The notes under the pieces: generated by a model | The model's input: only the letters and a program-made list of their open reading frames with translations | Told to the model about the DNA's origin: nothing | Database searches by the model: none | Made by a program: the position numbers and the translations under genes | NCBI RefSeq assembly: GCF_009914755.1 | Contig: NC_060928.1 | Reading direction: 5' to 3' (one strand) | DNA length: 64,000 nucleotides | From: the human T2T-CHM13v2.0 reference genome, Homo sapiens | In this document: piece by piece, positions 43,684 through 64,000 of the stretch | Layout: every line of letters starts with the position of its first letter | Position numbering within the stretch: the first letter of the stretch is position 1

Positions 43684-44349
43684 GTGTTTTGATCCACTTT
43701 CCACTGGAATGAGAGGATCTGTGTAAGGCACTTTCCAGGGAAGGCTGGGGACTGACCCTTGTTGCCTGAGGGCAGCTGTGGCCTGGGCCCCACAGGGCAA
43801 TCCCGGGCAGCTATCCTGCTGCCCACAGGTCCGGATTGCAGGCCCGAGACTCCAGCCTATCTGTACTGGGCCAGGTGGACTAGCTGGCTTTTCCCAGACC
43901 ACCAGGCCTTGAACTGACTTCAGATGGGAAACTGAGGTGGGCCAAGGGTGTGAGCATCTGTAGGAGCTGAGCTCCGGATCCTGCAGCTGAAGCTCATGTG
44001 TCCTGGAGTGTAGAGAAGGAGGGGCACTGAATGGGAGGATGGGGGTGGGCAGGAGGTGACCCCAAGGTAGGGTCAAGAGCTCAAGGGCGGGAGAGCTGGC
44101 CAGAGCCTGGGGCCTCATGGCATGATCGGGGGGACCACACTCAGGCTCACAGGCTTCCAGGGGGGCCTGGCTCCATGGGCGTGGATATTCCTGGGACCTC
44201 CCTCATCCTGATCATGCTACTTGGGTCCAGGGACCCTCTCCTGTCCCCTCTCTCACCATCGAGAAAGTCTGTCAGCCCCGGGATCTTCCAGGAAGGGGTC
44301 CCGTAGCCTGAGCAGAGAATGCAGCAGAGAAGGCACCTGAGCCGGCCAG

Positions 44350-44705
44350 GGCTGTGTCAAAAAGCAGCAGAGACCTGGCGCTTCAACAGCAGAAGTGTGT
44401 CCTCCCACAGTCCTGGGGGCTGACGTCAGAGCCATGTCCCCAGGGCGGGCTCCTTCTGGCACCACGCTCCCTGGCTCTTTGGCGGTCATCTTTCCCCCAC
44501 TCTTCCCATCATCATCCCTCTATGTGTCTCTGTCCACATTTCCTCTTCTTGTATTGGGCTAGGGCCTAATATAAGACCCTAGCGACCCTCATTTTAATTT
44601 AGTTACCTTTACAAAGATGCTACCTCCAAATAAGATCACACTGAGGACCTGGGGCTAGGACTTCAGCAGATGAATTTTGTGGGAGGGACATGGTTCAGCC
44701 CCTAG
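44350..44705 (-). mobile_element. MLT1-type MaLR LTR fragment (present in every unit)
   Basis: ctccaaataagatcacactgaggacctggggctaggacttcagcagatgaattttgtgggagggacatggttcagccc matches the reverse complement of an MLT1 5' end. Confidence 0.65.
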
Positions 44706-61100: not shown

Positions 61101-64000
61101 GACCTCCCTCATCCTGATCATGCTACTTGGGTCCAGGGACCCTCTCCTGTCCCCTCTCTCACCATCGAGAAAGTCTGTCAGCCCCGGGATCTTCCAGGAA
61201 GGGGTCCCGTAGCCTGAGCAGAGAATGCAGCAGAGAAGGCACCTGAGCCGGCCAGGGCTGTGTCAAAAAGCAGCAGAGACCTGGCCCTTCAACAGCAGAA
61301 GTGTGTCCTCCCACAGTCCTGGGGGCTGACGTCAGAGCCATGTCCGCAGGGCGGGCTCCTTCTGGCACCATGCTCCCTGGCTCTTTGGCGGTCATCTTTC
61401 CCCCACTCTTCCCATCATCATCCCTCTACTTGTCTCTGTCCACATTTCCTCTTCTTGTATTGGGCTAGGGCCTAATATAAGACCCTAGCGACCCTCATTT
61501 TAATTTAGTTACCTTTACAAAGATGCTACCTCCAAATAAGATCACACTGAGGACCTGGGGCTAGGACTTCAGCAGATGAATATTGTGGGAGGGACATGGT
61601 TCAGCCCCTAGGAGAGGGCAGCATCTCCCATACAGTGGCTCCTCACGTGCTCCTGGCTGTGCCATCGGCCCCCCTGGTTTCCAGAGCTCCAGGCCTGGGC
61701 AGGTCCCTCCATGGAACTGGGCATCCACTCTGAGCAGTGCCTTGGCCTCAACTGAATGACAGCATGGTCCCCACCAGCACCCTCAGCCTCGTTCCATTGC
61801 CTCCTGGCAGCTATGCCCTGAGGCGAAGGCCTCGGGGTTCCCAGCTGAAGCCCAGAGGAGCAGGCACACCCCCGGCGCTGGGTGGCGTGCTCTCGGGGGA
61901 AGGCATGGGGAGGGCTCAGGCAGCCTACAGCCCTCAAGTCTTACACTGGCACAACAGCGCTTGGTTTGCGGAGCAAGAATGATCTGGAGTGTTTGGGGAA
62001 CATCTCACAGCCTCCTGAGCCCCTGCATCCTACATTCACCCATGCGCCTAGTGCCTTGAAGGTTTACATTTATTTGGCTCCACTGCATACAGGGCACCGT
62101 GCAGGGGTCCTCTGAAACCCCGGGAGGCCCGTGGAGCAGACCTCTGCTTCGTGCTTTGCTGAAGTGGGTGTGGAAACAGCAGGCGCAAGGTGCCCAGGAC
62201 TCGGGGTGTGCAGGTGGCCGCTCAGTCTCAGTCCCCCCGTGGGGCACCTGCACGAGGCCTTCCCTGCACTTCATTCTGTCCCCACCCGTTCACGTTGTCT
62301 AGGGAAGAGCCTGCTGCAGTGGGTGTGTGGGGTGGAAGGACTCATTCCAGAGCCCAGTTCGTGTCAGGGGCCAAGGGCCAGGCCCCCGGCATAGAAACTG
62401 GGCCGAGGAGTGGGTCAGGGAGCCTTGGGGAAGGCTGTGCGGGGGGGCCGTGGCAAGAGTGGGGGCCGGGGAGGTGGAGACGAGGAGATAGCATTCTCTT
62501 CACACACCACCCCGGATCCAGCCAGCGGGGGGCCCTTCTGCACTTCCATGTCCTTTTTTGTTGGTTTGTTTTGAGACCGAGTCTCACTCTCTCGCCCAGG
62601 CTGGAGTGCAGTGGCGCGATCTCGGCTCACTGCAACCTCCACCTCCTGAGTTCAAGTGATTCTCCTGCCTCAGCCTCCCAAGTAGCTGGGATTACAGGTA
62701 CCTGCCACCACACCCGGCTACTTTTTGTATTTTTTTTTTTTTTTTTTTTAGTAGAGATGGAATTTCAACATGTTGGCTAGGCTGGTCTCAAACTCCTGAC
62801 CTCAGGTGACCCACCCGCCTTGGCCTCCCAAAATGCTGGGATTACAGGAGTGAGCCACCACGCCCGGCCCCTTGTCATTTTGCTAGAACCTGCACAGTCC
62901 TTAGTGACGTCCTTGCCTCTGGCAGGATCCCCTGGCTGGGCCCTGCTGCCCCCCTCACTTTCCTCGGTCCCTGCTTTCCAGTGTGAAAGCTGTCAGAATC
63001 AAAATGGAGACACTTGTCTTAAACAAAACAAAACAAAACCCCAACCAATAGAGCTGGGAACAGCCCTGACGGTATTCCCCATAAAACCATCACAGAAGAC
63101 AGCAAACACCACAATCGTGAGCAAAGTCCATCACAACCTCACACAAAAAACACTTCTGTGAGGACACCTGCCCAACCTCAGACTGTTACCACCCGTGTTC
63201 TCGATTCCTGTGGCAAGGATAAATATCCCAAAACAATTCTGTGATTCTCTTCACTTTGCCATTAAAGCCTCTGTGCTTTTACCTCCCTGAAAACGCACAG
63301 CGGACTCCAGCATACGTATTTGCACGCAATGCCCGACTCCTGAACGAACCTCGTTTTCATTTGGAGAGCCTCTCTGGCGGTGGTTCGGGTGGACGCTAGT
63401 GTGGACATGGCATTGGGAAAACGCTGCCTGTGCACCAGGGCTGCCTGTTGCTCCAGGGGTGCTCACTGCTTCCAGGCCCGTCCGTGGACAGAGCTAGATA
63501 TCCAATTGTTTTTAAAGGGAAAACACAAGGCCAGGCGTGGTGGCTCACACCTGTAATCCCAGCATTTTGGGAGGCCGAGGCCGGTGGATCACCTGAGGTC
63601 AGGAGTTCAAGACCAGCCTGGCCAATATGGTGAAACCCTGTCTCTACTAAAAATGCAAAAAAAAAAAAAAAAAAAAAAAAATAGCTGGGCAAGGTGGCAG
63701 GCTACTCTGGTGGCTGAGGCAGGAGAATGGCTTGAACCCAGAAGGTGGAGGTTGCAGTGAGCTGAGATCACACCATTGGACTACAGCCTGGGTGACAGAC
63801 CAAGACTCTATCTCAAAAACAAAAACAAAAATAAAAAACACAGAGGGTTCCTGTTGCTACTTCCAATTCCAAACCAGAATGACCTTCTCCTGTGCAGAGA
63901 ATCCCAGATTTCAGGGCAAAGGAGGGGAAGGACAAAGTAGAAAGTCACACAACTGTGCCTGCTTGATCCAAAGCACACACGACAGTCTCTCAGCCCAGTG
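61101..64000. repeat. macrosatellite unit 4 (partial, truncated by the window end)
   Basis: collinear with the first ~2.9 kb of units 1-3. Confidence 0.98.

What the first reader, a model, noticed from the sequence alone, without database searches (positions are those of the whole stretch)
44195..64000. 5.63-kb macrosatellite starting ~0.5 kb behind the CPZ poly(A) signal
Seen: at least 3.5 head-to-tail, nearly identical units (periods 5634/5635/5637), continuing past the window. Each is a mosaic of old TEs (MLT1, MER65-like LTR, 5 Alus, L1-like remnants) plus a CpG-rich block. It is not RS447/USP17: the unit is longer than RS447's ~4.7 kb and has no USP17 ORF. Inference: it is a copy-number-variable array kept homogeneous by unequal exchange and conversion. 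It occupies the CPZ termination zone, so copy number or methylation could modulate CPZ as D4Z4/DXZ4-type arrays act on their neighbourhoods. It may already be listed in large tandem-repeat surveys, but I know of no assigned function.
Basis: partly seen in the sequence, partly recalled or inferred. Interest (0 to 1): 0.85.

Follow-up and report, generated by a model that had tools for sequence, protein, structure and literature searches.

The report
Four-copy 5.6-kb tandem duplication behind CPZ
Just behind the human CPZ gene a 5.6-kb piece of ordinary non-coding DNA is repeated four times head to tail; it is real, young and was catalogued in 2008, and nothing in the sequence shows that it controls the gene.

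Summary
Head-to-tail units start at window 44195, 49829, 55464 and 61101, with periods 5634/5635/5637. Unit 1 is 99.2-99.6% identical to the others by blastn. The left edge is sharp, 495 bp after the CPZ 3' end.

The array barely continues past the window. In T2T-CHM13 it has exactly four units and ends at 66746 (chr4:8,600,195-8,622,746; 22.55 kb). The unit occurs nowhere else in the genome.

Each unit holds five Alus, two old dispersed repeats, locus-specific DNA, a weak 0.6-kb CpG island and one near-consensus CTCF motif. No protein domain was found: 0 of 85 open frames match Pfam.

The breakpoints share only 3 bp (GAC). The inner units are hybrids of the last unit's left end and the first unit's right end (Fisher p = 2e-5). 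That is a footprint of unequal crossing-over.

Warburton et al. 2008 already list the array: 4p16.1, 5.6-kb unit, 3 copies in hg18, >99% identical, CNV "+", MER65A.

It fails the D4Z4/DXZ4 and RS447 criteria I could test. The proposed regulation of CPZ has no support. Verdict: known, ordinary, low interest.

The parts
43678..43683 (+). CPZ poly(A) hexamer ATTAAA, 17 nt before the annotated 3' end at 43700. The array starts 495 bp after that end.
   Evidence: Sequence read; exon end taken from the hub's gene table.
44195..49828 (+). Unit 1 (5634 bp). Its left ~1.3 kb differs from all other units (8-9 differences, against 1-3 among the others).
49829..55463 (+). Unit 2 (5635 bp), a hybrid: left end like unit 4, right end like unit 1.
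55464..61100 (+). Unit 3 (5637 bp), a hybrid of the same kind.
61101..64000 (+). Unit 4, first 2900 bp. The whole unit is 5646 bp and ends at 66746 (chr4:8,622,746), 2746 bp beyond the window, where the array ends. It is the most diverged unit (0.69-0.78% substitutions against the others).
44195..44197 (+). GAC, the 3-bp microhomology. The same three bases open every unit and the right flank (66747-66749), so the boundaries are ambiguous by 3 bp. Nothing else is shared between the flanks.
44361..44725 (.). Old dispersed repeat (unit ~167-531), 67-85% identical to copies on many chromosomes. Family not determined here.
45645..45969 (-). Alu 1 of unit 1 (minus orientation).
   Evidence: masked stretch in the hub's table.
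46066..46515 (.). Old dispersed repeat (unit ~1870-2320), 65-74% identical to dispersed copies. Probably the MER65A that Warburton 2008 names; not tested.
46600..46932 (+). Alu 2 of unit 1.
47647..47965 (+). Alu 3 of unit 1.
48234..48563 (+). Alu 4 of unit 1.
48901..49500 (.). Weak CpG island of unit 1 (GC 0.59, o/e 0.69, 36 CpG). Its left part is locus-specific DNA and its right part runs into Alu 5. It recurs at 54401-55200, 60201-60900 and 65701-66400.
49004..49018 (-). CTCF-like 15-mer, one mismatch to the consensus I recalled. An identical copy lies in each unit (54636, 60275, 65914).
49290..49585 (+). Alu 5 of unit 1.
44198..49831 (-). 'Intron' of the predicted lncRNA LOC124906398. It is 5634 bp, exactly one repeat unit, and its GT..AG comes from the GACCT at each unit start. 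Most likely an alignment artefact.
   Evidence: Hub gene table.

Best explanation
This is a young, low-copy tandem segmental duplication of ordinary intergenic DNA. It belongs to the class that Warburton et al. call TE-containing 'megasatellites' and that the T2T repeat paper calls 'composite' arrays.

Proposed history:
1. A 5.63-kb stretch just 3' of CPZ was duplicated in tandem by a non-homologous, microhomology-mediated event. The stretch held five Alus, two old repeat fragments and locus-specific sequence. The breakpoints share only GAC.
2. Later, unequal crossing-over between the last and the first unit of misaligned arrays added inner units. These are left-of-last / right-of-first hybrids. 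CHM13 has 4 units and hg18 has 3.

The array codes for nothing recognisable. Its unit differences carry the CpG-decay signature of germline-methylated DNA. It most probably behaves as a neutral copy-number polymorphism.

Shown here: the structure, copy number, uniqueness, breakpoints, hybrid pattern and lack of coding domains. Inferred: neutrality, methylation and age. Paralogue divergence of 0.3-0.8% is below the ~1.2% human-chimpanzee figure I recall, so the array probably arose on the human lineage or near the split.
For: - Four full units and no more. All 5 unit-specific probes give exactly 4 full-length genome hits, all at this locus.
- Breakpoints: there is no similarity between the left flank and the unit end, between either flank and the unit apart from one Alu 0.9 kb to the right, or between the two flanks. 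The only shared sequence is GAC.
- Hybrid inner units. In unit positions 1-1300, u2 and u3 differ from u4 by 2 and 1 bases, but from u1 by 8 and 9. In positions 2801-5634 they differ from u1 by 6 and 11, but from u4 by 35 and 34. Unit-1-private sites lie left and unit-4-private sites lie right (8:1 against 3:27; Fisher p = 2.2e-5, Mann-Whitney p = 5e-4).
- Substitution divergence is 0.27-0.78%.
- Non-coding: the longest ATG ORF is 136 aa. 0 of 6 ATG ORFs reach a Pfam cut-off and 0 of 85 open frames match at E <= 0.01. Rfam shows only sub-threshold Alu echoes.
- 18 of 57 substitution columns are CpG transitions, although CpG sites make up 5.9% of bases.
- Print: Warburton 2008, Table 2D and passages read. 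The array is listed among gene-free megasatellites 'that accumulated TEs ... and were subsequently amplified', with CNV '+' and 3 copies in hg18.
Against: - Neutrality is not shown. No population, expression or chromatin data could be consulted.
- Each unit does carry a weak CpG island and a near-consensus CTCF motif.
- RefSeq predicts a minus-strand lncRNA that runs out of the array into the CPZ 3' region (hub table).
- The hybrid pattern is not perfectly clean. Three unit-4-private sites (1341, 1672, 1866) lie left of a unit-1-private site (2507), and one unit-1-private site lies at 5020. More than one exchange, conversion or later private mutations must be assumed.
- The match between the hg18 coordinates and this locus rests on band, unit size, identity, TE name and my recollection of CPZ's hg18 position. 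It does not rest on a lift-over.
Confidence: 0.8

Rival explanations
1. Copy-number-dependent or methylation-dependent regulator of CPZ. In this view the array lies in the CPZ termination zone and acts like D4Z4/DXZ4, through CTCF sites, heterochromatin or antisense transcription.
For: - Position: the array starts 495 bp behind the CPZ 3' end.
- Each of the 4 units holds one identical CTCF-like 15-mer with one mismatch, inside a weak CpG island.
- A predicted minus-strand lncRNA joins the array to the CPZ 3' half (hub table).
- Copy number differs between hg18 (3) and CHM13 (4).
Against: - Only 4 copies and 22.5 kb.
- Unit GC is 0.53 and CpG o/e 0.41, against the 62% GC the review table gives for DXZ4.
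- CTCF-like matches at one mismatch are equally common elsewhere in the window: 5 in the 44 kb outside the array, against 3 in the 19.8 kb of array inside the window.
- The lncRNA's 5' end lies in an Alu A-tail and its intron equals one unit, so the model gives no mapped promoter.
- CpG-transition excess suggests the units are methylated in the germ line like bulk DNA.
- No paper found links the array to CPZ. Brahmachary 2014, text and 11 supplement files, has no 'CPZ'. Garg 2020 drew its loci from the UCSC Simple Repeats track, which, as I recall, does not list periods as long as 5.6 kb.
Confidence: 0.07
2. Amplified transcription unit. In this view each unit carries a promoter, for example in the LTR fragment or the weak CpG island, for a non-coding RNA. 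The array multiplies that promoter, and the unit nearest CPZ gives an antisense transcript over the CPZ 3' exons.
For: - RefSeq model LOC124906398 (minus strand) has an exon at 49832-51292 inside the array and a 6-kb exon across the CPZ 3' end (hub table).
- An old LTR-like dispersed repeat lies just upstream of that exon on the minus strand.
Against: - The model is a prediction (XR_).
- Its 5' end coincides with the A-rich tail of a minus-strand Alu, where uniquely mappable reads stop.
- Its intron is exactly one repeat unit.
- 6-kb and 2.9-kb 'exons' look like unspliced background or read-through signal.
- No Rfam family reaches its threshold in the unit.
Confidence: 0.08
3. Assembly artefact: one genomic copy wrongly expanded in the assembly.
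For: None found. Near-identical repeats can be mis-assembled in principle.
Against: - The four units are distinguishable at 57 substitution columns plus indels, in an ordered, biologically sensible pattern.
- An independent clone-based assembly (hg18) also shows a tandem array, with 3 units.
- From my own knowledge, an array of 22.5 kb with 0.3-0.8% unit divergence is within reach of the long reads used for this assembly.
Confidence: 0.01

Closest known systems
TE-containing 'megasatellite' arrays of Warburton et al. 2008 (Table 2D), the same class as the 'composite' tandem arrays of the T2T repeat paper (Hoyt et al., preprint 10.1101/2021.07.12.451456)
   Same: The unit is longer than 2 kb and is built from interspersed TEs plus local sequence. 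There is no gene. Units are more than 99% identical and the array was expanded by unequal crossing-over. This very array is listed in the table (4p16.1, 5.6-kb unit, MER65A). The definition of composites was read.
   Different: Nothing essential. CHM13 carries 4 units where hg18 carried 3. I could not see Table S2 of the T2T paper, so I cannot say whether it is among their 19 curated composites. The main text has no chr4, CPZ or MER65.
RS447 / USP17 macrosatellite, 4p16.1
   Same: Same chromosome band; kilobase-scale tandem units; copy-number variable.
   Different: RS447 has a 4.7-kb unit with a USP17 ORF and 20-103 copies. Here the unit is 5.63 kb, there are 4 copies and no ORF with any Pfam domain, and no sequence match exists outside this locus. 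Warburton lists the two arrays separately, ~262 kb apart in hg18.
DXZ4 / D4Z4-type macrosatellites
   Same: Head-to-tail kilobase units, and one CTCF-like motif per unit.
   Different: The review table gives DXZ4 a 3-kb unit, 12-100 copies and 62% GC, and the review describes CTCF binding and a bidirectional promoter in each unit. From recall, D4Z4 has a 3.3-kb CpG-island unit that encodes DUX4. Here there are 4 copies, 53% GC and CpG o/e 0.41, more than a quarter of the unit is Alu, and no binding or chromatin data exist.
CT47 macrosatellite, Xq24
   Same: A low-copy array (4-17 units of 4.8 kb, 48% GC). Copy number and composition are similar.
   Different: Each CT47 unit carries a gene. This unit carries none.

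Membership tests
TE-mosaic megasatellite / composite tandem array (Warburton 2008 Table 2D; Hoyt 2021) | Repeat unit longer than 2 kb, arranged head to tail | tested here: met
   Units of 5634, 5635, 5637 and 5646 bp, all in + orientation and contiguous.
TE-mosaic megasatellite / composite tandem array (Warburton 2008 Table 2D; Hoyt 2021) | Unit made of three or more interspersed repeats, with no gene | tested here: met
   Five Alus and two old dispersed repeats. 0 of 85 frames match Pfam. No RefSeq protein-coding gene in the hub table.
TE-mosaic megasatellite / composite tandem array (Warburton 2008 Table 2D; Hoyt 2021) | Expansion by unequal crossing-over | tested here: met
   The inner units are last-left / first-right hybrids, Fisher p = 2.2e-5.
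Macrosatellite in the strict sense (Schaap 2013: 'usually spanning hundreds of kilobases', highly polymorphic) | Array of tens of units or hundreds of kb | tested here: not met
   4.0 units, 22.55 kb in CHM13; 3 units, 16.5 kb in hg18.
Macrosatellite in the strict sense (Schaap 2013: 'usually spanning hundreds of kilobases', highly polymorphic) | Copy-number polymorphism in the population | not testable with these tools
   Indirect only: 3 copies (hg18) against 4 (CHM13), and CNV '+' in Warburton's table, which rests on browser CNV databases.
RS447 / USP17 | 4.7-kb unit carrying a USP17 (ubiquitin hydrolase) ORF | tested here: not met
   The unit is 5.63 kb. The longest ATG ORF is 136 aa with no Pfam match. 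0 of 85 frames match.
D4Z4/DXZ4-type regulatory macrosatellite | GC-rich, CpG-island-like unit | tested here: not met
   Unit GC is 0.53 and CpG o/e 0.41. Only ~0.6 kb of 5.6 kb passes island criteria, and only marginally. The review table gives 62% GC for DXZ4.
D4Z4/DXZ4-type regulatory macrosatellite | CTCF binding in each unit | tested here: inconclusive
   One 15-mer per unit with one mismatch to a consensus I recalled. The density is similar outside the array. No binding data.
D4Z4/DXZ4-type regulatory macrosatellite | Heterochromatin or variable DNA methylation on the array, with an effect on neighbouring genes | not testable with these tools
   The only indirect sign is the CpG-transition excess among unit differences (18 of 57), which suggests germline methylation.

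The most novel reading that the evidence does not exclude
The four units each supply a CTCF-type site and a weak CpG island within 0.5-23 kb of the CPZ poly(A) site. In this reading the number of units (3, 4 or more) tunes CPZ 3'-end formation or insulation from the gene-poor region beyond, through antisense transcription from the proximal unit or through clustered CTCF binding. That would make a human-lineage tandem duplication a cis-acting quantitative expression variant.
Probability: 0.06. Interest if true: 0.5.

Novelty: already known. Interest (0 to 1): 0.15.

Why it matters
As it stands the finding matters little. It is one of about 17 gene-free, TE-mosaic tandem arrays listed in 2008, and it is small.

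Three things add modest value:
- The complete assembly fixes the array at exactly four units, with base-level ends.
- The 3-bp breakpoint microhomology and the hybrid inner units give a clean, small example of how such arrays start (a non-homologous duplication) and then grow (unequal exchange).
- The RefSeq lncRNA model that crosses the array contains an 'intron' equal to one repeat unit. Annotators may want to review it.

If copy number turned out to affect CPZ, the array would be a tractable small model of macrosatellite position effects. Nothing here points that way.

Tried and rejected
- Literature links between the array and CPZ. I searched 'macrosatellite'+'CPZ' (12 papers listed; I opened only PMC12297321, where CPZ occurs in a DOI string in the reference list; the other 11 I judged from title and abstract start to be FSHD or non-human genome papers). 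I also searched 'CPZ'+'VNTR'+'copy number' (1 unrelated paper), 'CPZ'/'tandem repeat'/'GPR78' (70 papers, 25 listed, none relevant by title or abstract, mostly chlorpromazine), and the lncRNA name with '5.6 kb' phrases (2 unrelated papers).
- The other '4p16.1' macrosatellite mentions concern RS447/USP17L: (passages read). For Tremblay 2010 I saw only the search listing.
- Brahmachary 2014: no 'CPZ', 'chr4', '4p16' or 'GPR78' in the main text and no 'CPZ' in 11 supplementary files. The number-string hits there were unrelated values.
- Garg 2020 preprint: no CPZ or chr4 in the main text. Its loci come from the UCSC Simple Repeats track, which, as I recall, does not list units this long. Its supplements are closed.
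- Hoyt 2021 preprint: no chr4, CPZ or MER65 in the main text. Table S2 is not readable. A look-up of the journal version under a PMC id I recalled failed.
- Coding capacity: ATG ORFs and all open frames of 45 aa or more in unit 2 (85 frames) gave nothing. The only Pfam line was a below-cut-off 13-bit Na_H_antiporter match in an Alu-derived ORF, rejected as chance.
- Rfam: 36 matches at E <= 0.01, all below the gathering scores and all on Alus (Metazoa_SRP, mir-1268, mir-3135). Rejected as Alu echoes.
- TRF finds only an 18-bp mini-repeat (2.3 copies) and A-runs inside each unit, nothing of note.
- NAHR between flanking repeats as the origin was rejected: neither flank is similar to the unit ends or to the other flank.
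- TE family naming, ape orthologues, population copy numbers, methylation and ChIP could not be attempted with the tools held.
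Full report
**Observation**

The repeat finder returns families of four copies with start-to-start spacings of 5634, 5635 and 5637 bp, beginning at 44195, 49829, 55464 and 61101. blastn of unit 1 against the whole window gives full-length collinear matches of 99.56% (unit 2) and 99.22% (unit 3), and 99.24% for the 2.9 kb of unit 4 that lies in the window.

The left edge is sharp. 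In all 24 of 24 50-bp blocks upstream of 44195, identity to the sequence upstream of 49829 is 8-36%, the random level. CPZ's annotated 3' end is 43700 and an ATTAAA hexamer sits at 43678-43683. The array therefore starts 495 bp behind the cleavage site.

**Extent**

The window's own genome could be searched. The first 1.2 kb of the unit matches in full only four times, at chr4:8,600,195, 8,605,829, 8,611,464 and 8,617,101. I fetched the next 10 kb of the chromosome. Unit 4 is complete there, 61101-66746 in extended window coordinates, and nothing further follows.

In T2T-CHM13 the array is therefore exactly four units of 5634, 5635, 5637 and 5646 bp. That is 22.55 kb, chr4:8,600,195-8,622,746. 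Four further unit-specific probes also hit the genome four times each, only here.

**Anatomy of a unit**

- Five Alus, one on the minus strand and four on the plus strand. They show up as sub-threshold 7SL matches and as cross-matches to other Alus in the window.
- Two old dispersed repeats: unit ~167-531 at 67-85% identity to copies on many chromosomes, and unit ~1870-2320 at 65-74%. I hold no TE library and cannot name them. Warburton et al. label the array 'Mer65A'.
- Locus-specific stretches. Unit 2741-3446, 3776-4041, 4406-5096 and 5396-5634 match nothing else in the genome at this tool's sensitivity. The same holds for 532-1206, where one search found no dispersed hit.
- Composition. The unit as a whole has GC 0.53 and CpG o/e 0.41. 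Only ~0.6 kb (unit ~4700-5300) passes CpG-island criteria, and only marginally (GC 0.59, o/e 0.66-0.69, 34-36 CpG). Part of it is Alu 5.
- One 15-mer with a single mismatch to the CTCF core consensus lies in that block, identical in all four units. The consensus is recalled, not taken from a tool. Similar one-mismatch matches occur 5 times in the 44 kb outside the array, so the density is unremarkable.
- No coding capacity. The longest ATG ORF is 136 aa. 0 of 6 ATG ORFs reach a Pfam cut-off. 0 of 85 stop-to-stop frames of 45 aa or more in unit 2 match Pfam at E <= 0.01. This confirms 'no USP17 ORF' and gives no support for L1 protein remnants.

**How it arose**

Neither flank resembles the unit ends, and the two flanks do not resemble each other. 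The only flank match is one Alu 0.9 kb to the right. The unit start and the right flank both begin with GAC, so the original junction has 3 bp of microhomology and no more. This indicates a non-homologous, microhomology-mediated tandem duplication. It argues against Alu-Alu recombination.

The four units differ at 57 substitution columns. Pairwise substitution divergence is 0.27-0.28% for the neighbours u1-u2 and u2-u3, 0.41% for u1-u3, and 0.69-0.78% for u4 against the rest.

The differences are ordered:
- Sites private to unit 1 lie on the left (8 of 9 in the left half). Sites private to unit 4 lie on the right (27 of 30 in the right half). Fisher p = 2.2e-5 and Mann-Whitney p = 5e-4.
- In positions 1-1300 the inner units differ from unit 4 by 2 and 1 bases, and from unit 1 by 8 and 9.
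- In positions 2801-5634 they differ from unit 1 by 6 and 11, and from unit 4 by 35 and 34.

Unequal crossing-over between the last and first units of an older two-copy duplication predicts exactly this. The new inner unit takes its left part from the last unit and its right part from the first. The pattern is not perfectly clean. Unit-4-private sites at 1341, 1672 and 1866 lie left of a unit-1-private site at 2507, and another unit-1-private site lies at 5020. Later private mutations, conversion or more than one exchange are therefore needed.

Eighteen of the 57 substitution columns are CpG transitions, although CpG sites are 5.9% of bases. This is the usual mark of germline-methylated DNA (inference). 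Paralogue divergence of 0.3-0.8% is below the ~1.2% human-chimpanzee figure I recall. The array is therefore probably of human-lineage age, or close to the split (inference, untested).

**What is in print**

Warburton et al. 2008 (PMC2588610; Table 2 and passages read) list under 'D) Megasatellite arrays': 4p16.1, array 16.5 kb, unit 5.6 kb, 3 copies, >99% identity, CNV '+', Mer65A, hg18 chr4:8,673,058-8,689,560. They list RS447/DUB3 separately, ~262 kb further on.

Band, unit size, identity and TE label all fit, and the genome holds only this one copy of the unit. By my recollection of CPZ's hg18 position the listed start lies about 0.5 kb past the gene, but I could not run a lift-over. Their 'CNV +' means overlap with CNV calls in browser databases. 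Three units in hg18 against four in CHM13 agrees with copy-number variation.

Their reading is that ordinary DNA accumulated TEs and was then amplified by unequal crossing-over. That is what I find. The T2T repeat preprint defines the same class as 'composite' arrays. Its main text does not mention this locus and I could not read its Table S2.

I found no paper that links the array to CPZ. Of the 12 papers listed I opened one, where 'CPZ' was part of a DOI, and I judged the rest from title and abstract start. Brahmachary 2014, text and 11 supplement files, has no 'CPZ'. Garg 2020 drew its loci from the UCSC Simple Repeats track, which, as I recall, does not list 5.6-kb periods. The other '4p16.1' macrosatellite mentions that I read concern RS447/USP17L.

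**The regulatory idea**

Position in the CPZ termination zone is a fact. Everything beyond that is conjecture.

Against the D4Z4/DXZ4 analogy: the array has four copies rather than tens. Its GC is 53%, against the 62% a review table gives for DXZ4. CpG is depleted over nine-tenths of the unit. The unit differences carry a methylation-decay signature.

In favour: there is one conserved CTCF-like motif per unit, inside a weak island, and RefSeq predicts a minus-strand lncRNA (LOC124906398) that links the array to the CPZ 3' half. That model is weak evidence for three reasons:
- Its 'intron' 44198-49831 is 5634 bp, exactly one unit. The GT..AG is supplied by the GACCT at each unit start. This is what an aligner produces on repeated DNA.
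- Its 5' end (51292) lies in the A-rich tail of a minus-strand Alu, where unique mapping stops.
- Its other exons are 2.9 and 6 kb long.

I give the regulatory reading about 6-7% and a promoter-amplification reading about 8%.

**Verdict**

It is not RS447, it was shaped by unequal exchange, and it is already catalogued. It is neither a large macrosatellite nor D4Z4/DXZ4-like.

It is a known, ordinary, young tandem segmental duplication of non-coding DNA and is most probably neutral. New here are the base-level ends, the 3-bp microhomology, the hybrid structure of the inner units and the likely artefact in the lncRNA model. Interest is low.

Noticed in passing
window 33351-51292, minus strand (LOC124906398); intron 44198-49831: The predicted lncRNA has an 'intron' of 5634 bp, exactly one repeat unit. 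Its splice sites are created by the GACCT at each unit start, and its 5' end lies in an Alu A-tail. The exon structure across the array is probably an alignment artefact.
   Followed up: partly
window 44195-66746 (units 1-4; the last 2746 bp lie beyond the window, in L009:1-2746): Unit-1-private variants cluster in the left 1.2 kb and unit-4-private variants in the right 2.8 kb. The inner units are hybrids. This is a compact example of unequal crossing-over recorded in sequence.
   Followed up: yes
window 46517-46556, and the same place in each unit (52149, 57789, 63423): An 18-bp mini-repeat, 2.3 copies, 86% matches, sits inside every unit (TRF). Its significance is unknown and it is probably trivial.
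   Followed up: no
window 4201-5700 and 16301-17100: The only strong CpG islands in the window lie at the GPR78 5' end (GC 0.68, o/e 0.73) and the CPZ 5' end (GC 0.69, o/e 0.61). Beside them the array's islands are marginal.
   Followed up: no
window 48375-48426 and 54009-54060: Matches to the mir-1268 family (75.4 bits, gathering score 83) lie inside Alu 4 of each unit. The family is Alu-derived as I recall, so these are taken as Alu echoes and not as miRNA genes.
   Followed up: no
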